From Patescibacteria group bacterium UBA1388 (GTDB lineage: Bacteria > Patescibacteriota > Microgenomatia > UBA1400 > PJMF01): a stretch of DNA of 64,000 nucleotides. The stretch is taken from positions 36,279 to 100,278 of the forward strand of contig DBQS01000016.1 of assembly GCA_002305355.1 (NCBI GenBank), written 5' to 3'. Of the stretch, positions 1 to 40,998 are shown one piece after another (position 1 is the stretch's first letter; the number at the start of each line of letters is the position of its first letter). The position numbers and the translations under genes are program-made. Under the pieces are notes generated by a model, which saw only the letters and a program-made list of their open reading frames with translations, was not told the DNA's origin and did no database searches.

Positions 1-58
1 CGATCAGTATGCTCCCTTTTTGTTCATCAAATGTGGTTTTTTTACCAATTTTTTTCAT
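1..58 (-). CDS. Partial CDS (5' end only, runs off the window): probable prepilin-type N-terminal domain protein
   Basis: Reverse-strand ATG at 58..56 translates by eye to MKKIGKKTTFDEQKGSILI. That is a basic leader, then Gly, then a hydrophobic stretch, as in the three pseudopilins immediately upstream. It starts 3 nt after the stop of ORF 62..571. Only 19 codons are visible. Confidence 0.3.
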   Translation of the reverse strand, partial: MKKIGKKTTFDEQKGSILI

Positions 59-61
59 TAT

Positions 62-571
62 TTATCTCATGCCGATTGTAGTTTGGAACTCTCTACTTTC
101 AAAACCTGTATTTTGGACAATCGGACTCGTGACGGTGTACGAAATTTTCAATGCATGTTTACCGCCAGGATTTCCGAGTCTTTGAATTGAAAAATTGCTA
201 ATTTGGGTATCGAAATTTAATGGCTGATGTTGATCCTCAACAATCAACACTAACTGGCCATCATCAACTACATAAGTATAATTAACGCCCTCAATGATTA
301 ACTTTGCGGTAGGGGAATTCTCTCCCAATAATAATGGCTGTACGATATTTGCAGATCTTTTGATGTCATAGGCTAAACGAGCAAGTATAAACTGACCGTC
401 ACGTTCAACTGCTGATAAAGCTTGACTTTGGCTTTTCGCTTCCAAGATTGATAGGAAAAGGGAGCTGAGTTGCACGAACATCAGTGACACCAACGCAAAA
501 TATAGCAAGAGCTCGATTAATGTATAACCTTGATTGAATCTCTTAATGATCTTTTGATTTGTTTTTATCAT
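62..571 (-). CDS. Pseudopilin / type IV pilin-like protein (prepilin N-terminal cleavage-methylation motif)
   Basis: The N-terminus KRFNQG|YTLIELLLYFALVSLMF has the class III signal layout: basic leader, Gly, Glu at +5, hydrophobic helix. It lies co-directionally in a pseudopilin run. Confidence 0.75.
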   Translation of the reverse strand: MIKTNQKIIKRFNQGYTLIELLLYFALVSLMFVQLSSLFLSILEAKSQSQALSAVERDGQFILARLAYDIKRSANIVQPLLLGENSPTAKLIIEGVNYTYVVDDGQLVLIVEDQHQPLNFDTQISNFSIQRLGNPGGKHALKISYTVTSPIVQNTGFESREFQTTIGMR

Positions 572-624
572 GACTTAGCTGCTTACTATTCATTTTTTGT
601 TCATTCTCATTATCCGCTCAATTG

Positions 625-2607
625 CTATGGAGAGTAATTGACAGTGACTGAATCAATCACTGGGGTACTGGAGCTATCCGCCGTTTCTAAAAAAACTTTA
701 TACTTAAAACATCTGCCAGGGTTTTCATAACCAGAATCATCATCATTGATAGGAATTGGCCCTTCATCTGTAAAAAATGTGGAGCTGGTTCCATCGGGAC
801 CAACAAAGATATATGATGGCTCAACGCAATTTCCGTTGACCGCATCTGCTACGGCCACTTGAAATTTTGCGCTGGTTTGATTGGGTACCATCTTATTCAT
901 CATCACATAATTAAAGGCGGTGGCATAACCAGCATCAAGATATTGAGATTCATAAGTGCCGGTAGTTGCAAATGAATCTCCGGCCCCACCTTCAATAATC
1001 TTGAACTCTGAAGTACTATCTTTGCTAACAATGTAAGAGTATGCTTCGCCATCTTGCTCTAACACACCATCAACCCCATAAACACCGGTATCTAAGTTGA
1101 GGCTGCCACACATTGTTGGATGTGATTCGTCAGTGATATCTACCACTTGATACTCTTCACCTCCAGTGCCAACAATAATTAGTTTGTTCTCGGTCACGAG
1201 TGCCAAGTCCCTGGGATTCATACCATGAGTGTCATATGTCCCAATGAGCGGAAGTGATCCGGATTTGCTAGTGGTGTCAATGATAAATAATTCCCTCATA
1301 TCCCCTGCCTCATCAGTGATGAGATATGCTCTGGTGCCAGTTTCATTTACTTCCACATCCTTACCACGTCTACTATTGACATTTGCGTATCCAACTCTTG
1401 ACAAACTTCTCGGATTAGAAACATCAATTATTTGCATTTCCCTCAAGCCAAAATCAAGCGCCACATAAGCATAATTTCCCTTCACATCAATTCTATAACC
1501 AGTTGCTGGCCACAACAAATAAGGACTCAAGTTGATTGAGTCAAGTTCGGGCAAATTGCCAGACTTATTAGTCAAGTCTACAGTGTGCAACTTGGGACCA
1601 ATCACCATATATGCCACGTTCCCAGACACATGCACTCCTTGCGCAGATCCCCACCAGTAAGTGTCATTAAAAACTGCTACCTCTTGCCCTGTTTCAAGAT
1701 CAACAACCAATAAATCTTTCGAAACGTCACCAGTCGCAATGTAAGCATAATTTTCATCAATGAAAATGTCATTGGTGTCATATCCTGCGATTTGATTGGC
1801 AATACTCACGCCAGGAGGATCATTTTGATCAATATCCATTTCTACAAATACTCCACCAGTACCATCGGTACCGCTAAAAGCCTTACCCTCAATCGCCCTC
1901 ACCACTTTAGCACGCCCTGTGCCAGGTAGGTCTAACTCGGTTCTAATGTAGTCGCTTGGTTTACACCAATTCCCTTTTCCACCAGAACCCAAAATGATTT
2001 CTCCGCCTTGATTATTTACCACCGCTGTGCCACTAGTGAATCCCTCTAAAAAATCTGCTTCACTCGTTTCGATTAAAGACAGATTGTCCAAATATCTAGT
2101 CATATAAATTACAGATGAGATCTGTGATGAGCTGGGTTGTTCCCAACTAATTTGAATGTCAATTTTTTTGATAGATGGATCAATAGTCCCACCTTCAGCA
2201 ATAATGTTTTCTGTTTCATCACGCATCACATCTGAAATAGTAAGTGCTCTTGTGAAGAGACCAGTTGTTTCTTCACCAGCCATAAGCGTCCAAGTCGATT
2301 CAGTCACTACCGGATGATAAACACCATTCGTGGCAATTGACTCCCAACTAGATTCTCTAATCACACGTAAAGCCTCCACGGTTTCAATGAGCAAACCATG
2401 CGCCTGAATTCTGTTCTGTCTTTGAGCGGAGCCTTGTTGAGAAGTAATAATTGCTCCAATTAAAGCAGGCGTAATAATTGCCATCAGGGCCATCACAACC
2501 AAAATTTCAATCAACAGTTGTCCCGAACTAGCGTTCCAGCTCTTCACAAATATTTGCCTCTGACCAGATAATTTTTGCAGAAACTTTAGATTAATTTTTT
2601 TGCGCAT
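625..2607 (-). CDS. Large pilin-like protein: prepilin-type N-terminus fused to an LVIVD-repeat beta-propeller-like domain
   Basis: The N-terminus NASSG|QLLIEILVVMALMAII has Glu at +5. The body holds at least five LVIVD-type repeats: NYAYIATGDVSKDLLVVDLETG, GNVAYMVIGPKLHTVDLTN, GNYAYVALDFGLREMQIIDVSNP, TRAYLITDEAGDMRELFIIDTT and KLIIVGTGGEEYQVVDITDESHP. Confidence 0.7.
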   Translation of the reverse strand: MRKKINLKFLQKLSGQRQIFVKSWNASSGQLLIEILVVMALMAIITPALIGAIITSQQGSAQRQNRIQAHGLLIETVEALRVIRESSWESIATNGVYHPVVTESTWTLMAGEETTGLFTRALTISDVMRDETENIIAEGGTIDPSIKKIDIQISWEQPSSSQISSVIYMTRYLDNLSLIETSEADFLEGFTSGTAVVNNQGGEIILGSGGKGNWCKPSDYIRTELDLPGTGRAKVVRAIEGKAFSGTDGTGGVFVEMDIDQNDPPGVSIANQIAGYDTNDIFIDENYAYIATGDVSKDLLVVDLETGQEVAVFNDTYWWGSAQGVHVSGNVAYMVIGPKLHTVDLTNKSGNLPELDSINLSPYLLWPATGYRIDVKGNYAYVALDFGLREMQIIDVSNPRSLSRVGYANVNSRRGKDVEVNETGTRAYLITDEAGDMRELFIIDTTSKSGSLPLIGTYDTHGMNPRDLALVTENKLIIVGTGGEEYQVVDITDESHPTMCGSLNLDTGVYGVDGVLEQDGEAYSYIVSKDSTSEFKIIEGGAGDSFATTGTYESQYLDAGYATAFNYVMMNKMVPNQTSAKFQVAVADAVNGNCVEPSYIFVGPDGTSSTFFTDEGPIPINDDDSGYENPGRCFKYKVFLETADSSSTPVIDSVTVNYSP

Positions 2608-3118
2608 GCATCGCTCCTAATTGGTTAATTTCGAAATCAACTCGATCCCCAGTTGTTGAATTTTCCAAACTAAATGTATCTAAATCAGATTGATAGTTCA
2701 TGACTTCACCGCTTAACGGTAAAAATATAATTTGTCTATCAGGTATCGTCACTTCCCTAAATCTGACATCCTGAGGCAATGTCGCCACCACATTGGCGGA
2801 GTCGCTAGCTTGGAAAGTATCACCTTGAAACAAAACATATTGATCATCTCCTAAATAAACACCCTGAGGTAGTGCCTCATCGAGATTTGAATAATTGCCT
2901 TGCATGGCCTGCATTTGTTGTCTTTTCAAGTCGGAAACAAACATTTGTTGATACTCGCTGAGATTTGTTTTCGGGATTAATCCTGACAAAGAAATGCTAG
3001 AAATTGCAAACACTACTGTAAATAAGGCAAGCACAACTAATATTTCAACGAGCGTCATGCCTTTATCTTCATAAAGAATCGATCTGTGCAACCAATCCTT
3101 ACTTTTCCTGTTCATCAT
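2591..3118 (-). CDS. Pseudopilin (prepilin N-terminal motif); start moved to an internal ATG
   Basis: Motif YEDKG|MTLVEILVVLALFTVVF. The ORF-track start (3268) would overlap the kinase gene by 170 nt. The ATG at 3118 (MMNRKSKDW...) gives a normal leader and only a 20 nt overlap with the kinase stop at 3099. Confidence 0.7.
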   Translation of the reverse strand: MMNRKSKDWLHRSILYEDKGMTLVEILVVLALFTVVFAISSISLSGLIPKTNLSEYQQMFVSDLKRQQMQAMQGNYSNLDEALPQGVYLGDDQYVLFQGDTFQASDSANVVATLPQDVRFREVTIPDRQIIFLPLSGEVMNYQSDLDTFSLENSTTGDRVDFEINQLGAMHAQKN

Positions 3119-5339
3119 TTGGGTCTTTCTTAACACTTTTTTCTTCGTGACGTTTGCGTAATTTTTTGAGTCCTTCCTCAGAATACACCGGCACTGTAAA
3201 ACTGAAAGTGGAACCTTTGCCATGACCGTCCGATTCAACCCAAATTTTCCCTCCGTGCAACTCAACAATTGATTTGCTGATGTACAAACCTAATCCAGTG
3301 CCTTGAGCTGAATCTTTGTTCGAAATGTAAGATTCTTTGAGCATACCAAATTTTTTAAACAACTTTGAAATTTGATCCCTCGCCAAACCTACTCCGGTAT
3401 CAATGACGCTGATCGTCACAAATTGTTTGGAAGCAGTTAGACATACTCTGACCTTACCTTGAGGGGGTGTGAATTTGAGTGCATTACCTATTAAATTAGT
3501 CAATACTTCAGCAATTTTATCTCGGTCTGCCATCACATCTGGTAAATCAGACATTTTCTGATGTTTAGCGGTCGGACACTCAATAGTGACCTGCACGTGA
3601 TGCGCTTCAGATCGAGGTTGAAATTCACCGACAATTTGTGACACTAATTCACCAATTTTTAGTTGGGTAATATTCAAAATAATTCTTCCTGATTCAATTC
3701 GCGAAATGTTCAACAAATCATTGATCAATTGTGACATTCTGTTGGCAGAGGCATATGCCCTATCTAAATAAAACTTTTGCTTGCGTTGCAACCTACCACC
3801 CTTGCCCGCCAAAGTCATCCAAATATAATTTTTGATTGAAACCATGGGAGTCCGCAACTCGTGAGAAGCAATTGATACAAATTCATCTTTAAGCTTGTCT
3901 AACTCCTGCAATTTTTTATTGGCAGCCAGTAATTGACTAGTAGCTCGTTCAATTTCATCCTCAAGTGTTATATTGAACCTGCGAATTTCTTCATAAGCTT
4001 TAGCATTTTCAATAGCAACTGCTGCTTGAGAGGCAATGATGTTAACTAACTTGGAGTCTCGGCTTGAAAAAGGATCGCCAGACAATTTCCCTCCCAAAGT
4101 AATTAGGCCTATTGTTTGACCCTCCTTAATCATCTCGATCACTAATTCAAACTCATATTTTTTAAAAATGTTCTGTAATTTGTTGTTGCTCAATGATTCG
4201 TAAATCATTAATTCATTGGGATGTAAAAGTTCTCCAATCTCTTTTTCATCAAGAACAGGTGTTTCGTCATACCCTTCACTAACAACCTGATATATCCCAT
4301 TTTCTTCAATTAAAATAATCATCCCTCTGTGAATTTTCATATTTTGTAACATACGTTGCAACAACTTCCGACATAAATCTTCCAGCAAGAGAGTGGATGC
4401 CATAATTAAAGTTAACTGGTGAAGCAATTCTTCGAAATCATAATAATCCTGATAAAAAATTTGATCCGTTGTTTTCGTAAGGAATTTTTTGAGTGGTTGC
4501 AGCGTAAATCCCACAGCAATAGACAAAAACACGAATATACTTGCTAAACGCAAATCTAACAAACTACCGAAAATCAAATTTGAAAACAAAAATAGAAAAA
4601 TACTTTGGAAAGTTGCAAAAATAATCAAGACTAAAAAATAGGAGACAGTTCTCGCTAGGACTGGCCTGATGTCTAAAAGTTGGTAACGACCAATGGCTGC
4701 GGCAACGGCCCCTCCTCCCAACAATAAAAATAATGGTGACCAATCAACAAACCAGGTAATATGAAAAATGAGCGGCAAAATTACCGTTGATACCAGCATT
4801 AAAATAAAGCTAATTGAAATACCGACTGCAATTAATTGCAGTTGTTGTCGCAAATAACCTTTGCTTAAACGGTATTTCCTGAACAGACTTGCTACTCCTC
4901 CCAAGATTGCACCTATCTGCAGCATCATAAATGACAACACTGCGGAACCAGCTTCGATTTGTAAAGTACCTGCTTCAATCGTAACTCTAGAAAAAATTAA
5001 TCCCGAATAAGCAAGAACAAAATTGAGCAAAACCCACAAAAAAAGAACGATTTGGATTTTCAAATTAAAAAATATTTTTTGTGTGGGAAATACTTTCACA
5101 AAACAAAAAAAGAAGGGACCAGCTGGAATGGCTGAAAATAGTATCATTTTAGAAAAGAAATCAAGGCCCATTTGAGAATTGGTATGTAAAGCTAAATAAT
5201 TAAAAATTGGGTAAAGACTAATGCAAAATAAAAGAAAAGCAAAATAGATATGAGTACCACTTTTCCTATTTTTGAGAATAATAAACAAGCCCAGTACAAA
5301 ACTGATTAAAGCAGTCAAGATGGCGATAAATAATTCCAT
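3099..5339 (-). CDS. Sensor histidine kinase: polytopic N-terminal membrane domain, GAF-like domain, HisKA, HATPase_c
   Basis: About 290 aa of repeated hydrophobic helices are followed by a GAF-like segment ending AAVAIENAKAYEE. The H-box is IASHELRTPM. The ATP-lid is GTGLGLYISKSIVELHGG. Confidence 0.85.
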   Translation of the reverse strand: MELFIAILTALISFVLGLFIILKNRKSGTHIYFAFLLFCISLYPIFNYLALHTNSQMGLDFFSKMILFSAIPAGPFFFCFVKVFPTQKIFFNLKIQIVLFLWVLLNFVLAYSGLIFSRVTIEAGTLQIEAGSAVLSFMMLQIGAILGGVASLFRKYRLSKGYLRQQLQLIAVGISISFILMLVSTVILPLIFHITWFVDWSPLFLLLGGGAVAAAIGRYQLLDIRPVLARTVSYFLVLIIFATFQSIFLFLFSNLIFGSLLDLRLASIFVFLSIAVGFTLQPLKKFLTKTTDQIFYQDYYDFEELLHQLTLIMASTLLLEDLCRKLLQRMLQNMKIHRGMIILIEENGIYQVVSEGYDETPVLDEKEIGELLHPNELMIYESLSNNKLQNIFKKYEFELVIEMIKEGQTIGLITLGGKLSGDPFSSRDSKLVNIIASQAAVAIENAKAYEEIRRFNITLEDEIERATSQLLAANKKLQELDKLKDEFVSIASHELRTPMVSIKNYIWMTLAGKGGRLQRKQKFYLDRAYASANRMSQLINDLLNISRIESGRIILNITQLKIGELVSQIVGEFQPRSEAHHVQVTIECPTAKHQKMSDLPDVMADRDKIAEVLTNLIGNALKFTPPQGKVRVCLTASKQFVTISVIDTGVGLARDQISKLFKKFGMLKESYISNKDSAQGTGLGLYISKSIVELHGGKIWVESDGHGKGSTFSFTVPVYSEEGLKKLRKRHEEKSVKKDPNDEQEK

Positions 5340-5345
5340 GCAGTG

Positions 5346-6482
5346 CTAGGGCAAATTAATCGCCTCCAAAACACTTCTGCGTGGCGTGTGAATTTCCCTA
5401 TTTACACTATACCCTAATCGAAAAAACATGTGAGGAGTAAGTTTGGGAATCCTGAAAAACGATTGCAAAAACGCTGGGTAGTTTTTGTTTTCAACCAAAG
5501 CTGCCATCGGCGTAGTGCTGATTCCAAAGTTTCGACAAACCAAAGCAACTAATTGATAAGCAATACCAGCTTGAATCCATGCCAAAATATTATTCTCAGA
5601 GCTAGCTATTAATCCTAACGCTGGTGCTGACTGTAAATTTTTAGCATCTTTGATCGACTGTATTTTCAATGGAAAAGCAAAAAACCTAATCACTATTGGT
5701 CCTAACCAAGACATCAAAAGTGGTAAACCTGAAACAAAACCGGGCATACCATCCGCTTGCTGAGTGTTGTTCGCTCGCAACCACTGGCTTAATTCTCTTC
5801 TGAAATTCTGATTCGCAGACATTTCATATGCTGCCTTCTTGTAAAGCTGAGCCAGTGTTTTAATTGTATCCCCATTTGATATAATTTTTAACTGAGATTT
5901 CGTAAATAATCTTACATAGTTGTTGATTAAATTTACAACTTGATTGGGAACAGTTTGAGAAAGATATTTCCCCTTATCTGAAAAACGTTTATCAATATTC
6001 TCAAACAGCCTACCGAGTATCATTAGTTTGGATATTTGATGATCATCTGTTGGTTTTTGAAATGAAACTTGAATTAATAATTCAAATCTTTTAACCCATA
6101 GGTCATTAACATTTGAAAAACAATTTTTAGTCTTAGTGATTCCTTGAAAATAGTTATCTTGATTAATATTTGATCTTTTCCGGTGAATTTCATAGTCAAT
6201 TTGATAACCATATGCTGCAGCAGCAACTTGTAAGTTTGTGATCATACAGCCGAGACTTATAAAAACACCCCTGTCAATGGGATCCGCGGCTGGCAGACGC
6301 AACTGATAATTTGGAGAAATTGTTAACCCGCCATCATTGACCTTTAACTTCCAAGGCTGCGTATTATGAGTTGATGGGGCAAGGATGCCCGCTTTCAAAC
6401 TTTCAGACACTACAACTGCTAATGATTTGTTGGATTGCGGTTGACGTAAATGATGCCAAGCTGCGTAATTGTGCTTATGCAT
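5346..6482 (-). CDS. Acg-type (two-lobed) nitroreductase-family FMN oxidoreductase
   Basis: The N-terminal signature GILAPSTHNTQPWKL is followed by AADPIDRGVFISLGCMITNL. The 378 aa length fits a duplicated nitroreductase fold of the Acg/Rv2032 type. The start codon abuts the upstream stop (6482/6483). Confidence 0.6.
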   Translation of the reverse strand: MHKHNYAAWHHLRQPQSNKSLAVVVSESLKAGILAPSTHNTQPWKLKVNDGGLTISPNYQLRLPAADPIDRGVFISLGCMITNLQVAAAAYGYQIDYEIHRKRSNINQDNYFQGITKTKNCFSNVNDLWVKRFELLIQVSFQKPTDDHQISKLMILGRLFENIDKRFSDKGKYLSQTVPNQVVNLINNYVRLFTKSQLKIISNGDTIKTLAQLYKKAAYEMSANQNFRRELSQWLRANNTQQADGMPGFVSGLPLLMSWLGPIVIRFFAFPLKIQSIKDAKNLQSAPALGLIASSENNILAWIQAGIAYQLVALVCRNFGISTTPMAALVENKNYPAFLQSFFRIPKLTPHMFFRLGYSVNREIHTPRRSVLEAINLP

Positions 6483-7586
6483 TTAATTTACCTCCATCAT
6501 ATCTTCAAGATCAAATATACTTGGAAAATGAATTTTCGTTTGCTGACTAACAACCTTTTTGCGCAGGGCAATTTGTCTAACTAAAAAGGCAGTGATACCT
6601 GCGCCAACTGTCACCGAACTATACAGTTGTGGTCTACCAACCAAAGTTATTCCCAACTGGGTAACTGAGCGCTTTGCTCTAAGCGGCACATTATTTTTAC
6701 CAACTAAAGTTACCGCCAACATTTTCCGTTCATCATCGCTTAATTTTTGATTGACTATTTTATTTAATAAGGCTGCTTTCACCCTGCCATGAAAAGGTTG
6801 CAAACTTTCTAAGTCGTAACGTTCAACATCGAACAATACCGAATCACCCAAATTAGTGCACATCAAGAGAGGCAAACGGTACTTTTTCGCCATTTGTCTT
6901 AACAGGACTTTCATCGGAAAGTCATCTATTGCATCAATAAGCAATTGCGGCCGATTCTTTTCCCTCATTAATTTTTCTATTAATGTTTGAGTGGCTCTTT
7001 TCCGAATCACATTTAACTTTAAAAAAGGATCAAGCTGATATAAATCTTGAGCAACCCGCTCTGCTTTTGACTGACCAATAGCAAAGATATCGACCGGTAC
7101 ACGATTTAAATTTGATATCGAAAAATAATCATCATCACAAATTGTCATCCTCTGTGAAAAACCGCACTGGATGATAGTTTTCGCAATCACCCCGCCAATA
7201 GACATCCCAAAAATTGCAATCGGAAAGTCACGGAGTTGCAGCTGTTCTTTTGCTGAAATGAGTTTTTGATTACGGTTGGTGCGCAAAGCAAAAAAATTAT
7301 GCTCTGTAAGTAAGTGTACGATGGCATTTCTCCATGGATAATAGACCCACACGCCAATAATTTGATCTTGTTCTTTATTATCAGCTAAAAATTCTTGCAA
7401 CTTGGCTTGATTGCTTGCCACAGATGGATTAGTTATTTCAAATAATTCCCGTAGTTGGTCTTGGTAGTGATCAATTTTATTAACTTGAGGATGATGAGCT
7501 AACCATCTTGATAAGTCTTTAGGAGAGTGCGAATCAGCAGAAATTATGAAAGGTGAATATTCTGACTTCATTTGCTCATTCATCAA
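6483..7586 (-). CDS. Divergent E1/ThiF/MoeB-like adenylyltransferase-fold protein with a unique ~110 aa N-terminal extension
   Basis: A Rossmann loop IAIFGMSIGGVIA is followed by the E1-family hallmark CDDDYFSISNLNRV (D-x-D..SNL.R). I saw no C-terminal rhodanese domain and no obvious CxxC pairs. Confidence 0.6.
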   Translation of the reverse strand: MMNEQMKSEYSPFIISADSHSPKDLSRWLAHHPQVNKIDHYQDQLRELFEITNPSVASNQAKLQEFLADNKEQDQIIGVWVYYPWRNAIVHLLTEHNFFALRTNRNQKLISAKEQLQLRDFPIAIFGMSIGGVIAKTIIQCGFSQRMTICDDDYFSISNLNRVPVDIFAIGQSKAERVAQDLYQLDPFLKLNVIRKRATQTLIEKLMREKNRPQLLIDAIDDFPMKVLLRQMAKKYRLPLLMCTNLGDSVLFDVERYDLESLQPFHGRVKAALLNKIVNQKLSDDERKMLAVTLVGKNNVPLRAKRSVTQLGITLVGRPQLYSSVTVGAGITAFLVRQIALRKKVVSQQTKIHFPSIFDLEDMMEVN

Positions 7587-7589
7587 ACC

Positions 7590-9116
7590 TTACTTCTTAA
7601 TCCATCGTTGCTTAATAATGGGGTTAAAATATTTGGGATGATGGTGTTCCCAAAAAATCACATTTGGTTCGGCCCTGCCATTAATAGTTTCATAGGTTTT
7701 TCTGTATGGTGAATTTTCAACTTTTAAAATCTCAACCAGTGTTTTCGTTACAGATTTTTTCAGTGATTTTGAACTTTTAATACCACTCTTTAACTCGACG
7801 TTAATATCTAATCTTTGATTCTGATCCCGATCATATCTGACTTCCATAGTAAATCTGCCAGTAACTGCTACCTCTAATTCGGAACGAAGTAATGCCCTTC
7901 TAATTGTTTCCGGATAAATCGTGAAACCATAAAAACTAACCGAAAAATCTCGCCTTTCGTAAACATAAACAAATGGTAGCTGCCAAACGGTATGATCTAT
8001 TTTTTCTTGTTTCGCAAGCTTCAGCAAATCTGTGCCATGTTCTTCAAAATTTTTAATCATCCTTTCAAAGGAAATTACTCTACCCCTATCTTTCAAATCA
8101 TAGCGTGCAAGTGGCAAACCACTATAGGCAGAACAAATTAAATCACCATCATCATCTTCAAAATAAAACATGTCTGGGAAAAATTGGGTTAAGGTAGGAA
8201 CACGATAGATTTTGTTAAAAACTTGATCAAAAATTACTTTGTTCAGATAAGCCTTTCTTCTTGCCAAAATTGAAAGTGGTGTTTCATAAGACATCGTACC
8301 CATATCCACCGTACCATATTGATTTAAAGTGTGCGTGAAAATATTTTCTAAGCCAGTTGCTTTCGCCACATAATCTCGAAAAGACTCACTAAATACTTCC
8401 GCCGCAAAAATAAAACCAAGGTCATATTGTTTCCACTTCAAACCCTCTCGTTTTGCTTCATCTAAAGTATCTTTGAGAAATGGTCCATAACTCCCAATAA
8501 TGATTTGATCAAAATATGGACCCAAGCGTTTGACAGCCTTAATGATTTCTGTCGCACTCACACCGGGTGTAATCACACTTAATGGATACTGTCTACTATC
8601 AGCAATGTATTTAATGGCTTGATAAGTAAACAAGCCTCCAATCCACTGCCCCATCGGAAAACCAACGATGTAGAGCGTAGTTTTCTGATCAATTTGAAAG
8701 TTTGTGAGCAAATATAATTCTGCCATTGCTGCATACTGCCAATCTTGATCCCTTTCCCTCGGAAAATAAAACGGTTCACCAGTTGATCCAGTAGTTGATG
8801 CAATTACAACTGGCTTTGAAGATAACTTACCATCCCACGATAAGGCATCAAGAGGATATTGTCTTAAATATGAGTTCTTACTAACTGGGGGTACCTTTTT
8901 AAAATCGGCAATTGTATTAATTGTGTGCGGCCTAATCTTGTGTTTACGTAAAAAATCTCGATAAGCAGGCACACGTAATGCCATCTGCTGAAATAATTGT
9001 AAAACGCGTTTGTCGCCTCTTTTTTGCCAATAATATTCTGGATTGTGTTGTAATTTGTAAAGTAATTTATTTGGTTGTAAATAGCCAGACGCTATTAATG
9101 TCCTGTTATTCTTCAT
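7590..9116 (-). CDS. Adenylate-forming enzyme of the phenylacetate-CoA ligase / coenzyme F390 synthetase (PaaK/CapK-like) family
   Basis: AMP-binding motif ASTTGSTGEPFYFP, plus FAAEVF and QYGTVDMG motifs. The start is set at ATG 9116 (MKNNRTLIAS), which overlaps the upstream stop as ATGAAGAATAA. The ORF-track start at 9221 would overlap 116 nt. Confidence 0.6.
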   Translation of the reverse strand: MKNNRTLIASGYLQPNKLLYKLQHNPEYYWQKRGDKRVLQLFQQMALRVPAYRDFLRKHKIRPHTINTIADFKKVPPVSKNSYLRQYPLDALSWDGKLSSKPVVIASTTGSTGEPFYFPRERDQDWQYAAMAELYLLTNFQIDQKTTLYIVGFPMGQWIGGLFTYQAIKYIADSRQYPLSVITPGVSATEIIKAVKRLGPYFDQIIIGSYGPFLKDTLDEAKREGLKWKQYDLGFIFAAEVFSESFRDYVAKATGLENIFTHTLNQYGTVDMGTMSYETPLSILARRKAYLNKVIFDQVFNKIYRVPTLTQFFPDMFYFEDDDGDLICSAYSGLPLARYDLKDRGRVISFERMIKNFEEHGTDLLKLAKQEKIDHTVWQLPFVYVYERRDFSVSFYGFTIYPETIRRALLRSELEVAVTGRFTMEVRYDRDQNQRLDINVELKSGIKSSKSLKKSVTKTLVEILKVENSPYRKTYETINGRAEPNVIFWEHHHPKYFNPIIKQRWIKK

Positions 9117-10161
9117 AAGATTCAATCTTTTGCAGATTAATTTCATCGGCAATAATGTGTGGCGAGCGCCTGGTTTTGGCACTAAGCTTAAAAATCTGGT
9201 CAAGCTCAGTGGCAATTGCATCCAGCTTTTTCATCATTCTGCGATGACTACGACGTGGGAACTCATACTCATCAACAACACTCATTAAACCACCGGCATT
9301 GATAATGTAGTCTGGGGTATAAAGAATATGACGCTCAAAAAGTAGATCTCCCATTTCTGAGGATGACAACTGATTGTTGGCGCCACCCGCTACTAATTGA
9401 CACTGCAGTTGCTTAACTGTTTTTTGATTAATACTACCGTACATAGCACATGGCACAAATACATCTACTGGCAAAGTAGCAATCGCTTCAGGTTTTACCA
9501 ATTCCACACGAGGATAAATTTTTTTAATGTTGGAAGTCACACTTTCTAAAACATCAGTCGCATAAATTTTTTCTGCCTCTGAGTAAAGTTGGCTGAGAAC
9601 TCCTGATCCAATTTTTCCCAAACCCTGAATGGCAAAACTCCTCTGATGCATTTCGTCATCACCAAAAACATGTTTCAAGCCCACTTTTAAGCCTTTAATA
9701 ATACCTGCCACAGTGTACTTCACAGGGTCAATTTCTCCGCCCACAACGTGTGAACTCAATTTCTTCAATTGCCGTACTTGCTGCCGACTCATGCCAATAT
9801 CTGCCCCGGTAATGAACATCCCAGCCAATAAATTAATCTGCTCCGCGTATGCTGCGGCCATGCGTGCTGTAAATTCTTCTGGGTGAGCAATAATCACAGC
9901 TTTTGCGCCACCATAAGATAAATTTCCAGCAGCTGATTTAAAAGACATTGTTTTCGATAAACGTAATACATCCCTCAGGGCTTCGACACGACTTGCATAG
10001 GGATAAATTCTAGTTGCCCCAAAAGACTTAAGTTTTTTTGAGCCACGATGAATGGCAATAAATCCTTCTAATTGTTGAGACGGTTGATTAAAGTAATGCA
10101 CGACTCGGTGTTGGTCATATTCCTCAAGATCGAGATTTGCTGTCAAACTGTTTTTTTTCAT
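9106..10161 (-). CDS. Glu/Leu/Phe/Val dehydrogenase family protein (leucine/phenylalanine dehydrogenase-like)
   Basis: FGATRIYPY, a catalytic-lysine box SYGGAKAVI, an NAD-binding loop IQGLGKIGSG, and GGANNQL near the C-terminal lobe. This is the first gene of the long minus-strand operon. Confidence 0.75.
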   Translation of the reverse strand: MKKNSLTANLDLEEYDQHRVVHYFNQPSQQLEGFIAIHRGSKKLKSFGATRIYPYASRVEALRDVLRLSKTMSFKSAAGNLSYGGAKAVIIAHPEEFTARMAAAYAEQINLLAGMFITGADIGMSRQQVRQLKKLSSHVVGGEIDPVKYTVAGIIKGLKVGLKHVFGDDEMHQRSFAIQGLGKIGSGVLSQLYSEAEKIYATDVLESVTSNIKKIYPRVELVKPEAIATLPVDVFVPCAMYGSINQKTVKQLQCQLVAGGANNQLSSSEMGDLLFERHILYTPDYIINAGGLMSVVDEYEFPRRSHRRMMKKLDAIATELDQIFKLSAKTRRSPHIIADEINLQKIESYEE

Positions 10162-10229
10162 AGGTATTGTTAAAAAGTTTGCGACAACGTTTACTTGCTT
10201 TTTCTACCCCTAATCAGTATGCTTGGCTC

Positions 10230-10691
10230 ATGAACACATCTATTGCAACTTCAAACCCAATCGATTCGCCTCAATCTGCCAATAACAGTTATCCTACTAC
10301 AAAAAATGCAAATAGCAAAAATGGGAAGAAAATTTTGATAGCAGATGACGAACAATATATTCGGGAACTTTATGAAGAAGTATTAAGCAGTGAAGGATAC
10401 TCTGTTGAGGGAGTTTCCGATGGTAAAACAGCTCTGGAAAAAATTTCAGAGGGAGGGTGGGATCTAATTACTCTTGATGTAATTATGCCCAAGCTCGATG
10501 GCTTGGGAATCCTTACAAAACTTGAGGAAACTCCACCAAAAAAGAAAAATGGACCAATCATTTTGCTTACTAGTCTTGCCAATGACCCCGCCGTTCTAGA
10601 AGCTCAAAAAAAAGGTGCCACTCAAGTCATCATCAAAACTGATATTACTCCTAAGCAGTTGGTGGATCTGGTTAAAAAACAGATTGGTTAA
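10230..10691 (+). CDS. Single-domain response regulator (receiver only, CheY-like)
   Basis: KKILIADDEQYIRE ... DLITLDVIMPKLDG ... LTSL ... K, with no output domain. The start is set at the first ATG (MNTSIATS); the ORF track begins at a TTG at 10167. It is divergent from the 10161 operon. Confidence 0.8.
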   Translation: MNTSIATSNPIDSPQSANNSYPTTKNANSKNGKKILIADDEQYIRELYEEVLSSEGYSVEGVSDGKTALEKISEGGWDLITLDVIMPKLDGLGILTKLEETPPKKKNGPIILLTSLANDPAVLEAQKKGATQVIIKTDITPKQLVDLVKKQIG

Positions 10692-10771
10692 GTAACACTG
10701 ATTATTTTAAAAATTTTTGCTGGAAATTTGGTACACTCGCTAGCTTGCTATAAATCAAAGACAAACAAATC

Positions 10772-11827
10772 TTATCTCGCGCCTACTGAGCCAATCAAAC
10801 CATAAATTGGAGCGATGATCGCCATCATCATCCCTCCCACCGCCAGTCCCACAAAAACAAGCAAGAGCGGTTCTAGCATAGCTGTCATTTTCTTTACAGA
10901 CTTACTCACCTTATAATCCATATTCTCAGATACATTTTGCATTGCTTCCTCAAGCGTGCCACTCTTCTCACCAACTTCCATTAACTTAATCATAATGCCA
11001 GGAATAATGTTCTGCTTGCTTTGTAAACCATGAGAAAAAGGATGACCAGCAACAGCTTGCTCTCGAGCTTGATCCACCAAATCTCTGACTTCTTTTTTTA
11101 AAATTACCTCCTGAGCAAGTTCTAATGAGGTGGTGATAGGGATACCAGAAGAAAGAAGTAAATGTAAACTCCGACTAAATCTGGTGATATCGATTTCACG
11201 AATTAGCTTAGAAACTCCAGGAAATGAAAATGCTATTTGTAAGATAAACTCACGTTTGGTTTGATACAAAACAAAAATAATCATCACTAACAACGCTACA
11301 ATTCCGAGTACAATTTGCCAATTGCCAGTCAAAGCGTTGGAAGTAAAGATTAATGCTTTCGTCGCCATTGGAAGAGTGACATTCAACCTTGTAAATACAG
11401 TTGAAATACGAGGAATAACAAACAATAACATACCCAACAACACGCCAATAAAAACAATCATCACGACAATCGGATAAAACATGGCTGACTTCACACCGTC
11501 AATGAATTCCATTTCTTTTTTAATATTCCCCTGCAAATCGTACAATGTTTCTTCAAGTGTACCTGCTTCTTCAGCGGCTTTAATCAAACTCACTGTGACT
11601 TTGTCGAAAGTATAAGGATATCTAGAAAAAGAGTCGGAAATTTGTTTGCCTGCAGAAATATCTTCACGCAAGGACAGTAAAATCTTTCTTTGGTTTCCTT
11701 TTGCTTCTGCGAGCAACGAGTCGACTGTTTCTGAAATAGGGATACCAGCCGACAACATCGTTTTTAAATTAGCGATTAAGCTAATTTTTTCCTCTTGCGC
11801 TAATCTAACTCTGCCGAATCCAAACAT
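10772..11827 (-). CDS. pilC: Type IV pilus assembly platform protein PilC / GspF family
   Basis: Two T2SS-F repeats (MLSAGIPISE and LLSSGIPITT) and three TM segments. It starts 3 nt after the pilB stop. Confidence 0.85.
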   Translation of the reverse strand: MFGFGRVRLAQEEKISLIANLKTMLSAGIPISETVDSLLAEAKGNQRKILLSLREDISAGKQISDSFSRYPYTFDKVTVSLIKAAEEAGTLEETLYDLQGNIKKEMEFIDGVKSAMFYPIVVMIVFIGVLLGMLLFVIPRISTVFTRLNVTLPMATKALIFTSNALTGNWQIVLGIVALLVMIIFVLYQTKREFILQIAFSFPGVSKLIREIDITRFSRSLHLLLSSGIPITTSLELAQEVILKKEVRDLVDQAREQAVAGHPFSHGLQSKQNIIPGIMIKLMEVGEKSGTLEEAMQNVSENMDYKVSKSVKKMTAMLEPLLLVFVGLAVGGMMMAIIAPIYGLIGSVGAR

Positions 11828-11830
11828 GCC

Positions 11831-13525: not shown

Positions 13526-13531
13526 ACTTTT

Positions 13532-13537
13532 ATCATA
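13532..13537 (-). promoter_or_regulatory. Candidate -10 box (TATGAT) 6 nt upstream of the pilB ATG
   Basis: The minus strand reads GTATATGATAAAAGTATG. There is no Shine-Dalgarno sequence between the box and the ATG. The -35 position (TTCATT, 13560..13555) abuts the IS boundary. Confidence 0.35.
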
Positions 13538-13559
13538 TACTAAAAATTAACTAAAATGA

Positions 13560-13566
13560 AACTTTT
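13560..13566. repeat. Target-site duplication AACTTTT (left copy) of the IS481-like element
   Basis: An identical 7-mer directly flanks both ends of the element (13560..13566 and 14644..14650). The neighbouring bases differ. Confidence 0.7.
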
Positions 13567-19775: not shown

Positions 19776-20486
19776 ATGGCAACATCACGCATTACCCTTT
19801 CACAAAAAAAACGTACTTTAAGATTCATTCACACCATTGGTCACGAGTTGAAACAACCTTTGAGTTTAATTAAGGCATATACTTACTACTTACGCAAATA
19901 CTTACCCAAAGATGAACAAGCTCAGCAGTATCCAATTAAAATCAGTCGTCAAGTGGACTTGCTGACTACAATGCTGAATGACATTGTGGAAACCTCAAAG
20001 CTCTCAATTAAAGAAATGAAGTTGTCTAAACAAAAGATTGAGTTAGGAAAGTTTGTCAAAAACCAAATTGCAGATCTTAGGTCTGCTTACCCCACCCGCA
20101 ATATTCAACTCGTGATAAAACATCATCCCAATTATATTCTGGGAGACAAGATGCGCTTGAGACAAGTAATCATGAATTTATTGACTAATGCACTTTCTTA
20201 TTCGAAGGCAGAGGATTCCATTCTTATTTCAATCAAACCAAGCCGCAAAACGATTCAACTGTCCATTACTGATCACGGCGTGGGAATTCACCAATCACAA
20301 TTAAAACATATTTTCGAACCTTACTACCGAACTGATGAATCTAAAAAAAGAGGAATTAAAGGCTTGGGATTAGGACTCGCAATCGTCAAAGAAATACTAA
20401 GGTTACACCAAGCCAAAATATCTGTCCAAAGTCAATTAAAGCGGGGCACGACATTTACAATCCGTTTTCCAAAAATAAGCATCTAA
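19776..20486 (+). CDS. Cytoplasmic histidine kinase (HisKA + HATPase_c only, no sensor domain)
   Basis: H-box TIGHELKQPLSLI; N-box LTNALSYS; G-boxes DHGVGI and GLGLGLAIVKEIL. Confidence 0.8.
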   Translation: MATSRITLSQKKRTLRFIHTIGHELKQPLSLIKAYTYYLRKYLPKDEQAQQYPIKISRQVDLLTTMLNDIVETSKLSIKEMKLSKQKIELGKFVKNQIADLRSAYPTRNIQLVIKHHPNYILGDKMRLRQVIMNLLTNALSYSKAEDSILISIKPSRKTIQLSITDHGVGIHQSQLKHIFEPYYRTDESKKRGIKGLGLGLAIVKEILRLHQAKISVQSQLKRGTTFTIRFPKISI

Positions 20487-20495
20487 CATCAACGA

Positions 20496-40997: not shown

Positions 40998-40998
40998 A

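What the first reader, a model, noticed from the sequence alone, without database searches (positions are those of the whole stretch)
1..10161. One ~10 kb transcription unit couples the enzyme cassette to a GAF sensor kinase and four pseudopilins
From the dehydrogenase start (10161) to the window edge, nine genes lie on the minus strand. Their junctions are an 11 nt overlap, a 3 nt gap, no gap, a 6 nt gap, a 20 nt overlap, a 17 nt overlap, a 53 nt gap and a 3 nt gap. I found no terminator-like hairpin between them.

The order is dehydrogenase, ligase, E1-like protein, nitroreductase, polytopic GAF histidine kinase, then pseudopilins at 3118, 2607, 571 and 58.

The only nearby partner for the kinase is the output-less receiver gene transcribed divergently (10230-10691). 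The assembly genes pilB and pilC sit just upstream.

The co-transcription suggests that a product or substrate of the cassette is sensed by the GAF kinase and is tied to pilus or pseudopilus function. There is a loose parallel in mycobacteria, where acg belongs to the regulon of the GAF kinases DosS/DosT. That parallel may be coincidental.
Basis: inference. Interest (0 to 1): 0.6.

Follow-up and report, generated by a model that had tools for sequence, protein, structure and literature searches.

The report
Oxazolone-like cassette wired to sensor kinase
In this ultrasmall (Patescibacteria) bacterium, a four-enzyme pathway related to the one that makes oxazolone lipids is packed tightly against a membrane sensor kinase, a pairing found in every evaluable relative sampled, and in this lineage the pair sits inside a pilus operon, which makes it a testable candidate chemical signalling system.

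Summary
Nine minus-strand genes have exactly the stated junctions, and terminator-like sites are no more frequent than in shuffled sequence.

- **The enzyme pair.** The "E1-like protein + nitroreductase" pair is homologous to oxazolone synthetase (OxzB; M. tuberculosis TyzB/TyzC and TrzS = Rv1355c).
- **The other enzymes.** A PaaK-like ligase stands where the usual N-acyltransferase would be, and a Leu/Phe/Trp-type dehydrogenase feeds the pathway. Natural fusions (DH-LIG-E1, LIG-E1, E1-NR-hydrolase) show these enzymes form one pathway.
- **Cassette-kinase link.** Of 64 Patescibacteria loci, 56 have the kinase directly downstream, one has it split, and 7 are cut by a contig end. None of 7 non-Patescibacteria loci has it.
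- **The sensor.** The conserved sensor is the 7TM region, not the GAF domain, which half the kinases lack.
- **The partner.** A receiver-only regulator accompanies nearly all GAF-class kinases.
- **The pilus link.** It is specific to one clade but old: pilB-pilC-RR-cassette-kinase-six pilin genes is kept down to 57% PilB identity. It is absent from most other lineages.
- **DosS/DosT-Acg parallel.** Not supported.

Most likely the cassette makes a small heterocycle that the kinase senses. That step, and any output to the pilus, are inferred.

The parts
1..58 (-). 5' end of the fourth pilin-like gene (133 aa in the near-identical contig L080). It has a GspK-like N-terminus without Glu5 and is cut by the window edge.
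   Evidence: MKKIGKKTTFDEQKGSILIALL... in L080 17525-17926.
62..571 (-). Minor pilin pp3 (169 aa), with prepilin motif QGYTLIELL.
   Evidence: weak N_methyl, HpsC and ComGF hits. An ortholog sits at the same position in L004, L082, L085, L087 and L088.
625..2607 (-). Large minor pilin pp2 (660 aa) with an LVIVD beta-propeller. It is a candidate tip adhesin.
   Evidence: LVIVD, E = 6e-18. Orthologs score 397-1465 bits in six lineages. The analogy to the beta-propeller minor pilin PilX2, needed for host binding in TM7x, comes from PMC11623550.
2591..3118 (-). Minor pilin pp1 (175 aa, GspH-like). Its start overlaps the kinase stop by 20 nt.
   Evidence: N_methyl E = 4e-05, TIGR02532, weak GspH.
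3099..5339 (-). Sensor histidine kinase (746 aa): HisKA_7TM bundle, two further membrane helices, GAF, HisKA, HATPase_c.
   Evidence: AlphaFold2 model with mean pLDDT 82.8. The phospho-acceptor His493 and the N and G boxes are invariant in 51 homologues.
5346..6482 (-). Flavin-dependent oxidase of the nitroreductase superfamily (378 aa, Acg/Rv3131 family). It also matches the C-terminal half of the Rv1355c (TrzS) model.
   Evidence: NF047509 at 192 bits against a cut-off of 199; PRK07877 positions 370-456. PDB 2ymv (Acg); all 45 homologues match both models.
6483..7586 (-). ThiF-like ATP-dependent cyclase (366-367 aa), homologous to the N-terminal half of TrzS/Rv1355c.
   Evidence: PRK07877 at 240.6 bits over model positions 4-339; the closest solved structures are TcdA/CsdL, and the Gly-rich loop, Asp, N-x-N-R, Lys and I-D-x-I-D motifs are kept; invariant residues.
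7590..9116 (-). PaaK-like adenylate-forming ligase (508 aa). It has no Pfam family.
   Evidence: the family profile matches phenylacetate-CoA ligase 2y4o at E = 7e-16, over N- and C-terminal domains; no Pfam hit for 43 of 47 members.
9106..10161 (-). Leu/Phe/Trp-type amino-acid dehydrogenase (351 aa).
   Evidence: leucine dehydrogenase 6acf at E = 4e-54; tryptophan dehydrogenase 5b37 at E = 7e-54.
10162..10229 (.). Divergent spacer between the receiver gene and the cassette. This is the presumed promoter region (65-300 nt in relatives).
   Evidence: No consensus promoter was found here.
10230..10691 (+). Receiver-only response regulator (153 aa; 174 aa if it starts at TTG 10167).
   Evidence: Response_reg E = 2.5e-23, with no other domain. 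Receiver-only proteins of 120-161 aa flank the module in 27 of 71 loci, mostly those with the long GAF-class kinase.
10772..11827 (-). PilC/GspF platform protein, convergent with the receiver gene.
11831..13525 (-). PilB/GspE-type assembly ATPase.
   Evidence: T2SSE E = 4e-128, plus MshEN.

Best explanation
**What it is.** The region is a conserved Patescibacteria module with three parts:
- a small-molecule pathway
- a polytopic 7TM sensor histidine kinase encoded immediately downstream
- a stand-alone receiver protein

**Proposed pathway.**
1. The dehydrogenase acts on a hydrophobic or aromatic amino acid. In other lineages an aminotransferase or an aromatic amino-acid lyase takes this place.
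2. The PaaK-like ligase activates the resulting acid with ATP and joins it to an amine. This replaces the acyl-CoA-dependent N-acyltransferase of known oxazolone pathways.
3. The ThiF-like enzyme adenylates and cyclises the product.
4. The flavin oxidase desaturates it, giving an oxazolone-type heterocycle or its ring-opened dehydro-amino-acid form.

**Proposed signalling.** I propose that this compound is the cognate ligand of the kinase's membrane 7TM bundle. The kinase would then phosphorylate the receiver-only protein. That protein has no DNA-binding domain, so it would act on other proteins.

**The window's clade.** Here the whole module lies between pilBC and a block of six pilin-block genes, probably in one transcript. 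Expression of the minor pilins, including the beta-propeller candidate adhesin, would then be tied to the module's promoter. The pilus machinery is the most plausible target of the receiver.

**Shown:** the homologies, the single-pathway status of the enzymes, the cassette-kinase linkage, and the clade-level pilus synteny.

**Inferred:** the product, ligand recognition by the kinase, co-transcription, and the pilus output.
For: **(1) Enzyme identity.**
- E1 matches the Rv1355c/TrzS family over its whole N-terminal half: 240.6 bits, with the next-best family at E = 5.5e-14.
- The nitroreductase and all 45 of its homologues match both the Acg and the Rv1355c models.
- TrzS, TyzB/TyzC and OxzB are experimentally shown to cyclise and desaturate N-acyl aromatic amino acids to oxazolones (PMC12856293, PMC10404671, bioRxiv 10.1101/2020.06.11.147165).
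- The closest solved structures, TcdA/CsdL, also form an oxazolone, and the ATP-binding motifs are kept.

**(2) One pathway.**
- Natural fusions exist: DH-LIG-E1 (P0235), LIG-E1 (P0228), E1-NR-alpha/beta-hydrolase (P0242) and E1-NR (P0218).
- The entry enzyme is interchangeable across loci: dehydrogenase, class I/II aminotransferase (18 loci) or aromatic amino-acid lyase/aminomutase (5 loci). All of them act on an amino acid's alpha-amino group.

**(3) Kinase linkage.**
- 56 of 64 Patescibacteria loci have a kinase on the same strand directly after the cassette. Seven are cut by a contig end and one has the kinase split.
- None of 7 non-Patescibacteria loci has it.
- Only 6 other kinases occur in 702 kb of flanks.
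- In the reverse direction, 5 of 5 metagenome loci found through the 7TM region carry the cassette. So do 6 of 7 further kinase homologues with at least 31% identity whose surroundings were looked up. In one of these, L088, the cassette is replaced by a divergent E1-like gene plus an unknown gene.

**(4) Sensor.** HisKA_7TM is present in 46 of 51 linked kinases. The AlphaFold2 model is confident, and its only structural matches are GPCR-type 7TM bundles, though weak.

**(5) Partner.** Receiver-only proteins sit beside the module in 27 loci.

**(6) Pilus embedding.**
- The same order, pilB-pilC-RR(opposite strand)-cassette-kinase-pp1..pp6, is found in L080, L001, L082, L085, L087 and L088. PilB identity runs from 100% to 57% and pp2 from 99% to 36%.
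- The block stays intact in L085 and L087 although their outer flanking genes differ.
- The kinase-pp1 junction is always between -17 and +13 nt.
Against: - No product, transcript or phosphotransfer has been observed; all function is inferred from homology and gene order.
- The known oxazolone pathways need an N-acyl amino acid synthase, which is absent here. That the ligase substitutes for it is a guess.
- The nitroreductase is missing from some cassettes (L084, L085, L066).
- In L088 the dehydrogenase, ligase and nitroreductase are replaced by an unknown 373-aa protein plus a divergent E1-like protein, while the kinase, receiver and pilus genes stay. The kinase therefore does not strictly need this exact enzyme set.
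- One kinase homologue at 34% identity (L089) has no cassette nearby.
- Tight synteny would equally fit the reverse logic, in which the kinase controls the enzymes.
- The pilus link is absent from most lineages. PilB-like genes near the cassette occur at about background density in the species-representative sample (3 in 702 kb).
- Within the window's clade the shared order could be plain vertical inheritance.
- The sample of loci was drawn with two peptide patterns and is not unbiased.
- Several records are titled 'Gammaproteobacteria' or 'Pseudomonadales'. I counted them as Patescibacteria on gene content only.
Confidence: 0.5

Rival explanations
1. The logic runs the other way. The 7TM kinase senses an external cue (host surface, membrane state, a nutrient) and, through the receiver, controls the activity of the enzymes. 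Their product would then be an effector such as an antimicrobial, an envelope lipid or a cofactor, not the kinase's ligand.
For: - The same universal adjacency fits this reading equally well.
- N-acyl dehydrotyrosines of other phyla are reported to have antimicrobial activity, as cited in PMC12856293.
- In L088 the kinase and receiver persist with a different enzyme pair.
- L089 has the kinase with no cassette.
Against: - The receiver has no DNA-binding or enzymatic output, so it cannot regulate transcription on its own.
- The enzymes lie upstream of the kinase in the same tightly packed unit, so they would be made together with the kinase rather than in response to it.
- Synthase genes placed next to a polytopic kinase are the classic layout of autoinducer systems (my own knowledge, not tested here).
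Confidence: 0.25
2. The link to the pilins is historical only. The receiver-cassette-kinase module was inserted once into an ancestral pilB-pilC-minor-pilin operon and has been inherited vertically. It has no functional tie to the pilus.
For: - In L066, pilB-pilC-pp1-pp2-pp3 are contiguous, which shows the undisturbed operon form.
- Most cassette-kinase modules have no pilus genes within 10 kb.
- PilB-like genes near the module occur at about background density in the species-representative sample.
- The pil-embedded loci form one clade by PilB identity.
Against: - The pilB-to-pp6 block stays intact in L085 and L087 although their outer flanking genes differ.
- It persists to 57% PilB identity and 36-41% pp2 identity, and even where the enzyme content has changed (L085, L088).
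- Three other arrangements also place the module next to pilB/pilC: L079, L066 and L014.
- The kinase-pp1 junction is always 13 nt or less, or overlapping.
Confidence: 0.3
3. The E1-like enzyme, ligase and oxidase modify a peptide or protein, for example a pilin or a small precursor, as in microcin C7, pantocin or azole-peptide pathways, rather than a free small molecule.
For: - Most characterised ThiF-like enzymes outside primary metabolism act on peptides (review PMC12596934).
- MccB and PaaA appear among the weaker structural relatives of the E1.
- Pilin genes follow directly in this lineage.
Against: - There is no room for a precursor gene: the junctions are 0-6 nt or overlapping.
- The best family match is TrzS, which acts on a free N-acyl amino acid.
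- The entry enzymes (dehydrogenase, aminotransferase, lyase) act on free amino acids and are even fused to the ligase and E1.
- Most cassettes have no pilin genes nearby.
Confidence: 0.07
4. The module is a hypoxia or redox dormancy circuit like mycobacterial DosS/DosT-DosR with Acg in its regulon.
For: - The nitroreductase is Acg-family, and its only solved relative is Acg, PDB 2ymv.
- The kinase has a GAF domain.
Against: - DosS and DosT are soluble kinases with tandem GAF domains, one of which binds haem, and DosR carries a DNA-binding domain (my own knowledge).
- Here the kinase has about nine membrane helices and one GAF domain.
- Nearly half of the linked kinases have no GAF domain.
- The regulator is receiver-only.
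- The oxidase is paired with, and elsewhere fused to, a ThiF cyclase.
Confidence: 0.03

Closest known systems
Oxazolone and N-acyl-dehydro-amino-acid pathways: OxzA/OxzB (Pseudoalteromonas rubra), TyzA/TyzB/TyzC and TrzA/TrzS (Rv1356c/Rv1355c) of M. tuberculosis, and the NasY-ThiF-nitroreductase clusters for stieleriacines
   Same: - A ThiF-like ATP-dependent cyclase sits next to, or is fused with, a flavin-dependent oxidase of the nitroreductase superfamily.
- E1 matches the TrzS family model over its whole N-terminal half, and the oxidase matches the Acg and TrzS models.
- E1-oxidase fusions exist within this same family.
- The precursors appear to be amino-acid derived.
   Different: - There is no N-acyl amino acid synthase or acyltransferase. 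A PaaK-like adenylate-forming ligase and an amino-acid dehydrogenase, aminotransferase or lyase stand in its place.
- The enzymes are separate genes rather than a fusion.
- The cassette is invariably followed by a 7TM histidine kinase in Patescibacteria, a link I did not find reported for any known oxazolone cluster in the papers I could search.
- The product is unknown.
Autoinducer synthase next to a polytopic sensor kinase: CqsA/CqsS (Vibrio), LqsA-LqsR-LqsS (Legionella), RpfB/RpfF-RpfC-RpfG (Xanthomonas DSF). These are recalled from my own knowledge and were not tested here.
   Same: - Small-molecule biosynthetic genes are adjacent to a multi-pass membrane histidine kinase thought to bind a hydrophobic ligand in its membrane domain.
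- The partner response regulator has no classical DNA-binding output (LqsR, RpfG).
- A ligase sits in the rpf cluster.
   Different: - The enzymes share no sequence relationship.
- The sensor domain here is HisKA_7TM, a different family.
- No evidence yet that the product is exported or sensed.
DosS/DosT-DosR regulon with Acg (M. tuberculosis)
   Same: An Acg-family oxidase and a GAF-containing kinase are both present.
   Different: - The kinase is membrane-embedded, with a 7TM region and a single GAF domain.
- The GAF domain is dispensable across the family.
- The regulator has no DNA-binding domain.
- The oxidase works with a ThiF cyclase.
Photoactive yellow protein locus (pyp with tyrosine ammonia-lyase and p-coumarate ligase genes). 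This is recalled from my own knowledge.
   Same: In five Patescibacteria loci an aromatic amino-acid lyase and an aryl-acid ligase are encoded beside a sensor protein.
   Different: - Here the sensor is a 7TM kinase rather than a PAS protein.
- Extra cyclase and oxidase steps are present.
- Nothing points to a bound chromophore.
Type IV pilus operons of Patescibacteria, such as the T4P-1 and T4P-2 loci of Nanosynbacter lyticus TM7x
   Same: The locus has PilB, PilC, a set of minor pilins that includes one large beta-propeller pilin, and a small major-pilin-like gene.
   Different: A two-component system and an enzyme cassette are inserted between pilC and the minor pilins. The TM7x study mentions no kinase or response regulator.

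Membership tests
Oxazolone synthetase system (OxzB / TyzB+TyzC / TrzS) | ThiF-like cyclase domain homologous to that of TrzS, TyzB or OxzB | tested here: met
   NCBIfam PRK07877 (Rv1355c family) scores 240.6 bits, E = 3e-71, over model positions 4-339. The next-best family has E = 5.5e-14.
Oxazolone synthetase system (OxzB / TyzB+TyzC / TrzS) | Flavin-dependent oxidase of the nitroreductase superfamily, adjacent to or fused with the cyclase | tested here: met
   - There is a 0-nt gap between E1 and NR.
- NR scores 192 bits against the Acg family model and also matches the C-terminal half of PRK07877.
- All 45 homologues match both models.
- E1-NR fusions exist, such as P0218.
Oxazolone synthetase system (OxzB / TyzB+TyzC / TrzS) | Intact ATP-binding and adenylation residues in the cyclase (TrzS D217 is essential) | tested here: inconclusive
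   - The Gly-rich loop, Asp152, N-x-N-R161, Lys173 and the I-D-x-I-D motif (Asp220) are invariant and align with those of TcdA.
- A residue-by-residue match to TrzS D217 could not be made because no TrzS sequence was available.
Oxazolone synthetase system (OxzB / TyzB+TyzC / TrzS) | Adjacent N-acyl amino acid synthase or acyltransferase (OxzA, TyzA, TrzA, NasY) | tested here: not met
   - None of the ten genes at 62-11827 is an acyltransferase.
- None turned up among the recurrent neighbours in 71 loci.
- A PaaK-like ligase occupies the slot.
Oxazolone synthetase system (OxzB / TyzB+TyzC / TrzS) | The product is an oxazolone | not testable with these tools
   Needs heterologous expression and LC-MS.
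Two-component system (histidine kinase plus cognate receiver) | Catalytically competent kinase core and receiver | tested here: met
   - HisKA and HATPase_c are present, with His493 and the N and G boxes invariant.
- The receiver domain scores E = 2.5e-23 and has the DD, D, T/S and K residues.
Two-component system (histidine kinase plus cognate receiver) | This kinase and this receiver are actual partners | tested here: inconclusive
   - Receiver-only genes flank the module in 27 of 71 loci, mainly those with the GAF-class kinase.
- The other kinases in the window each have their own neighbouring regulator.
- Phosphotransfer was not tested.
DosS/DosT-DosR-Acg circuit | Soluble kinase with tandem GAF domains (one haem-binding) and a DNA-binding DosR-type regulator | tested here: not met
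   - The kinase has about nine membrane helices and one GAF domain.
- 22 of 51 linked kinases lack a GAF domain.
- The regulator is receiver-only.
- Haem binding was not tested.
Single operon (one transcription unit) | Continuous transcript across all junctions | not testable with these tools
   The evidence is indirect only: junctions of 53 nt or less, no terminator signal above chance, and tight junctions conserved in six lineages.
Type IV pilus / pseudopilus minor-pilin set | Prepilin-type N-terminus (G|F/Y/M-T-L-I/V-E plus a hydrophobic helix), encoded with PilB and PilC | tested here: met
   - pp1, pp3 and pp6 carry the canonical motif.
- pp2 has SGQLLIEIL.
- pp4 lacks Glu5, like GspK.
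- pp5 has no pilin-type N-terminus.

The most novel reading that the evidence does not exclude
Patescibacteria would carry a phylum-wide chemical signalling system.
- A ligase-dependent oxazolone-type molecule, made from an amino acid, would be the cognate ligand of a GPCR-like 7TM histidine kinase.
- In some lineages the bound molecule might even act as a cofactor or chromophore of the kinase. Arylidene-oxazolones resemble the GFP chromophore, and the lyase-plus-ligase variants recall chromophore supply for photoactive yellow protein. I give this sub-reading about 0.05.
- The kinase would signal through a CheY-like receiver to the type IV pilus that these epibionts use to move and to hold on to their hosts.

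If true, this would give oxazolones their first physiological role and give these bacteria their first described signal-receptor pair.
Probability: 0.25. Interest if true: 0.85.

Novelty: new variant of a known kind. Interest (0 to 1): 0.63.

Why it matters
**Oxazolones.** Their physiological role is explicitly unresolved in the papers that discovered them, where signalling is suspected but untested. A cassette that is followed by a dedicated membrane sensor kinase, in every evaluable genome sampled across a whole bacterial radiation, turns that question into a concrete experiment: make the product, then add it to the kinase.

**Patescibacteria.**
- These bacteria have very small genomes and little biosynthetic capacity. 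Keeping a three-to-five-enzyme pathway plus a two-component system across Saccharimonadia, Microgenomates-type and Parcubacteria-type lineages therefore suggests an important function.
- How they regulate type IV pili is stated to be an open question (PMC11623550). Those pili are needed for twitching and host binding.
- The clade that contains this window offers a natural place to look, because there the module is built into the pilus operon.

**Enzymology.** A PaaK-like ligase standing in for the acyl-CoA-dependent N-acyltransferase would be a CoA-independent route to N-acyl amino acids.

Tried and rejected
- **Exact look-ups.** The window's nitroreductase and E1 (P0001) were not on record. 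A cluster mate (P0121) gave the near-identical contig instead.
- **RNA features.** There are no tRNA genes and no Rfam family anywhere in the window. No riboswitch or leader explains the unit.
- **Promoter and terminator scans.** Counts were at or below shuffled expectation, so they cannot place the unit's boundaries.
- **Metagenome scan with 51 sequences.** The 7TM alignment was too divergent to search with. A 10-sequence alignment worked but returned only 5 loci.
- **Fold search with the full-length kinase model.** The kinase core dominated the matches.
- **Fold search with the 7TM region alone.** It gave only weak GPCR-type matches: best E = 3.5e-3, TM-score 0.4-0.5. This fits a 7TM bundle but does not show homology, and says nothing about the ligand.
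- **GAF pocket as the general ligand site.** I first read this as plausible and then rejected it, because 22 of 51 linked kinases lack the domain.
- **Pilus adjacency as pure chance.** I concluded this from the species-representative loci. I revised it after context look-ups showed the same order in six lineages of the window's clade.
- **Neighbour-joining trees of E1, kinase and ligase.** They are too poorly resolved to say whether the enzymes in L085 were replaced by transfer.
- **The 373-aa protein of L088.** It is not a diverged ligase (hhalign probability 0.3%).
- **Literature searches.** Searches linking oxazolones, ThiF or nitroreductase with Patescibacteria, two-component systems or PaaK/F390-type ligases found nothing.
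- **Substrate of the dehydrogenase.** It could not be assigned: leucine and tryptophan dehydrogenases score equally.

Full report
**1. The observation**

The ORF list and translations reproduce the nine minus-strand genes and every stated junction:

| Junction | Spacing |
|---|---|
| DH (9106-10161) / ligase (7590-9116) | 11-nt overlap |
| ligase / E1 (6483-7586) | 3-nt gap |
| E1 / nitroreductase (5346-6482) | no gap |
| nitroreductase / kinase (3099-5339) | 6-nt gap |
| kinase / pp1 (2591-3118) | 20-nt overlap |
| pp1 / pp2 (625-2607) | 17-nt overlap |
| pp2 / pp3 (62-571) | 53-nt gap |
| pp3 / ninth gene (starts at 58) | 3-nt gap |

- The consensus scan found 9 terminator-like sites in 1-14000, against 9.3 +/- 2.9 in shuffles. 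The minus-strand ones are weak stems, none at a gene junction. It found 36 promoter-like sites against 41.2 +/- 5.9.
- No tRNA or Rfam element is present.
- The description is therefore accurate, but these scans cannot prove co-transcription.
- Other kinase/regulator pairs exist in the window, each adjacent to its own partner. The receiver-only gene at 10230-10691 is thus the one unpaired candidate partner.

**2. The organism**

- Homologues that carry a source name come from Candidatus Saccharimonadales, Woesebacteria and Pacebacteria. The 71 loci recovered from species-representative genomes are almost all Patescibacteria.
- The closest named relative is a Candidatus Pacebacteria genome, GCA_002784585.1, with 73% PilB identity.
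- A JGI contig (L080) is 99% identical over window 1-13566.

**3. What the enzymes are**

- **E1.** It matches the NCBIfam model of the Rv1355c family over model positions 4-339, at 240.6 bits. The next-best family has E = 5.5e-14.
- **Nitroreductase.** It matches the Acg family model end to end, at 192 bits against a cut-off of 199, and also matches the C-terminal half of the Rv1355c model. All 45 homologues match both models. Its only solved relative is Acg, PDB 2ymv.
[quoted passage not shown] It converts N-acyl tryptophan to an oxazolone. TyzB/TyzC and OxzB do the same with N-acyl tyrosine (PMC12856293, PMC10404671, bioRxiv 10.1101/2020.06.11.147165).
- **Structure relatives.** The best solved relatives of the E1 family are TcdA/CsdL, which also form an oxazolone ring, and the nucleotide-binding motifs are conserved.
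- **Ligase.** It has no Pfam family, but its family profile matches phenylacetate-CoA ligase in both domains (2y4o, E = 7e-16).
- **Dehydrogenase.** It is of the Leu/Phe/Trp type; leucine and tryptophan dehydrogenases score equally.
- **What is missing.** No N-acyl amino acid synthase, the hallmark first enzyme of the known pathways, is present here or among the recurrent neighbours.

**4. The enzymes form one pathway**

A search of 1.84 billion cluster representatives found 727 relatives of E1 at E <= 1e-30. Among them are these natural fusions:
- DH-LIG-E1 (P0235)
- LIG-E1 (P0228)
- E1-NR-alpha/beta-hydrolase (P0242)
- E1-NR (P0218)

Across loci the entry enzyme varies:
- dehydrogenase
- class I/II aminotransferase (18 loci)
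- aromatic amino-acid lyase or aminomutase (5 loci)

An alpha/beta hydrolase (11 loci) or an FAD monooxygenase (3 loci) is sometimes added.

My inference is that an amino-acid-derived acid is activated by the ligase and joined to an amine. The product is then cyclised by E1 and desaturated by the oxidase. This chemistry is not shown.

**5. The kinase link**

I annotated the 71 loci with phmmer, using the window's proteins as queries.

| Locus group | Kinase on the same strand directly after the cassette |
|---|---|
| 64 Patescibacteria loci | 56 yes; 7 cut by a contig end; 1 (L057) has the kinase split |
| 7 non-Patescibacteria loci (4 Streptomyces, 2 Margulisbacteria-type, 1 Actinomycetota MAG) | none |

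- Only 6 other kinases occur in 702 kb of flanking DNA.
- In the reverse direction, 5 of 5 metagenome loci found through the kinase's 7TM region have the cassette upstream.
- Among the contexts I looked up for kinase homologues:
  - L082, L084, L085 and L087 carry the cassette.
  - L088 carries a divergent E1-like gene plus an unknown gene.
  - L089 (34% identity) has no cassette.
  - L086 (25% identity) has no cassette and lies next to a ketoacyl synthase.

The linked kinases fall into two clean classes:
- 29 long ones with 7TM plus GAF
- 22 short ones in which the 7TM region joins the kinase core directly

HisKA_7TM is detected in 46 of 51. The 7TM bundle is therefore the shared sensor, not the GAF domain.

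- The AlphaFold2 model is confident: mean pLDDT 82.8 for the whole protein and 83.4 for residues 1-300. It shows a conserved beta-hairpin between helices 4 and 5.
- The 7TM model's only structural matches are GPCR-type bundles, and they are weak.
- Receiver-only proteins of 120-161 aa lie beside the module in 27 loci, nearly all of the long class.

**6. The pilus link**

- In the species-representative sample, only L004, L066 and L014 have pilB/C or pilins within 10 kb. That is about the background density.
- Context look-ups showed that the window's exact order is conserved in L080/L081, L001/L004, L088, L082, L087 and L085. The order is pilB-pilC-receiver (opposite strand)-cassette-kinase-pp1..pp6.
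- Across these lineages, identity to the window runs as follows:

| Protein | Identity to the window |
|---|---|
| PilB | 100, 93, 73, 63, 58 and 57% |
| pp2 | down to 36% |
| E1 | down to 30% |

- In L085 and L087 the genes outside the block differ, yet the block is intact.
- The kinase-pp1 junction is -17, +11, -1, -4, +1 and +13 nt in the six lineages.
- In L066, pilB-pilC-pp1-pp2-pp3 are contiguous, which shows the undisturbed operon form. There the module lies divergently alongside.
- L079 has cassette-kinase-receiver-pilB-pilC. L014 has a small kinase-receiver-pilB upstream of the cassette.

The pilus link is therefore real and old within one clade, recurs in other orders of genes elsewhere, and is absent from most lineages. 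Whether it reflects function or inheritance is open.

On the pilin block itself:
- The pilins are a minor-pilin set. pp4 lacks Glu5, pp5 is not pilin-like, and pp6 looks like a major pilin.
- pp2 is a beta-propeller pilin. This recalls PilX2 of TM7x, which is needed for host binding.

**7. Best explanation and rivals**

- **Best reading (confidence 0.5).** The cassette makes an oxazolone-type small molecule that the 7TM kinase senses. The kinase signals through a receiver-only protein. In this clade the module shares a transcript with the minor pilins and may act on the pilus.
- **Rival: reverse logic (0.25).** The kinase controls the enzymes.
- **Rival: historical pilin link (0.3).** The link to the pilins has no functional meaning. 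This concerns only the pilus part of the story.
- **Rival: protein modification (0.07).** The enzymes modify a peptide or protein.
- **Rival: DosS/DosT-Acg-type circuit (0.03).**

**8. Comparison with what is known, and novelty**

- The enzymes are a new, ligase-dependent variant of the oxazolone pathway.
- The layout resembles autoinducer synthase-kinase loci such as Cqs, Lqs and Rpf. That comparison rests on my own knowledge and was not tested.
- I found no paper that connects oxazolone-type enzymes with Patescibacteria or with a two-component system.
- I rate it a new variant of a known kind. Its interest is moderately high because it makes the unresolved role of oxazolones directly testable, and perhaps pilus regulation in these epibionts as well.

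**Limits**

- There are no expression, product or phosphotransfer data.
- The locus sample was drawn with two peptide patterns.
- Some records carry non-Patescibacteria titles, and I overrode these on gene content alone.
- The trees are rough neighbour-joining trees.

Noticed in passing
window 13567-14643: A 1,077-bp insertion is absent from the 99%-identical contig L080. It is flanked by a 7-bp direct duplication and encodes a 357-aa HTH + rve integrase (IS481-like). It sits in the 22-nt dinB-pilB spacer, directly upstream of pilB. It may cut pilB off from upstream transcription in this strain.
   Followed up: partly
L085 1169-3481: In a relative, an IS1595-family transposase and a Replic_Relax gene are inserted between pilB and pilC of the same conserved block. 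This is a second mobile-element hit on the same operon.
   Followed up: no
window 10692-10771; L082 6732/6733; L087 3724-3770; L085 4814-4842: pilC and the receiver gene converge with almost no spacer: 80 nt in the window, 0 nt in L082, and overlaps of 47 nt and 29 nt in L087 and L085. No terminator-like hairpin is present. pilBC transcription probably reads antisense through the receiver gene and perhaps on into the cassette, so the true unit may start at pilB.
   Followed up: partly
L088 6328-8933: In the Pacebacteria relative (73% PilB identity), the slot between receiver and kinase holds an unknown 373-aa protein with no family hit, plus a divergent 489-aa ThiF-like protein (hhalign probability 96% to the E1 family). 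They replace DH, ligase, E1 and nitroreductase. The enzyme set in this slot is replaceable.
   Followed up: partly
L011 13696-14972; also L023, L030, L064, L068: Downstream of the short, GAF-less kinases there is a recurrent bactofilin gene followed by a DAGK-type lipid kinase gene, instead of a receiver. This hints at a different output for that class.
   Followed up: no
L080 17923-19149 (beyond the window edge); L082 17721-18644; L085 13647-14309: The fifth gene of the pilin block (220-408 aa) has no prepilin N-terminus and no family hit, yet it is conserved in position in all six lineages.
   Followed up: no
L056, L058, L060, L061 (Streptomyces); L036, L045 (Margulisbacteria-type): The ligase-E1-nitroreductase trio also occurs outside Patescibacteria, without the kinase. 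This looks like an undescribed ligase-type subfamily of oxazolone-like clusters in cultivable actinomycetes, which could serve for product discovery.
   Followed up: no
L004 and other TPA_asm records: Several public records that carry this module are titled 'uncultured Gammaproteobacteria' or 'uncultured Pseudomonadales'. Their gene content and similarity place them with Patescibacteria, so the taxonomic labels are probably wrong.
   Followed up: no
window 19776-21173, 23340-25792, 39975-41679: Three further kinase/response-regulator pairs lie in the same 64-kb window. That seems a high density of two-component systems for a genome of this kind.
   Followed up: no
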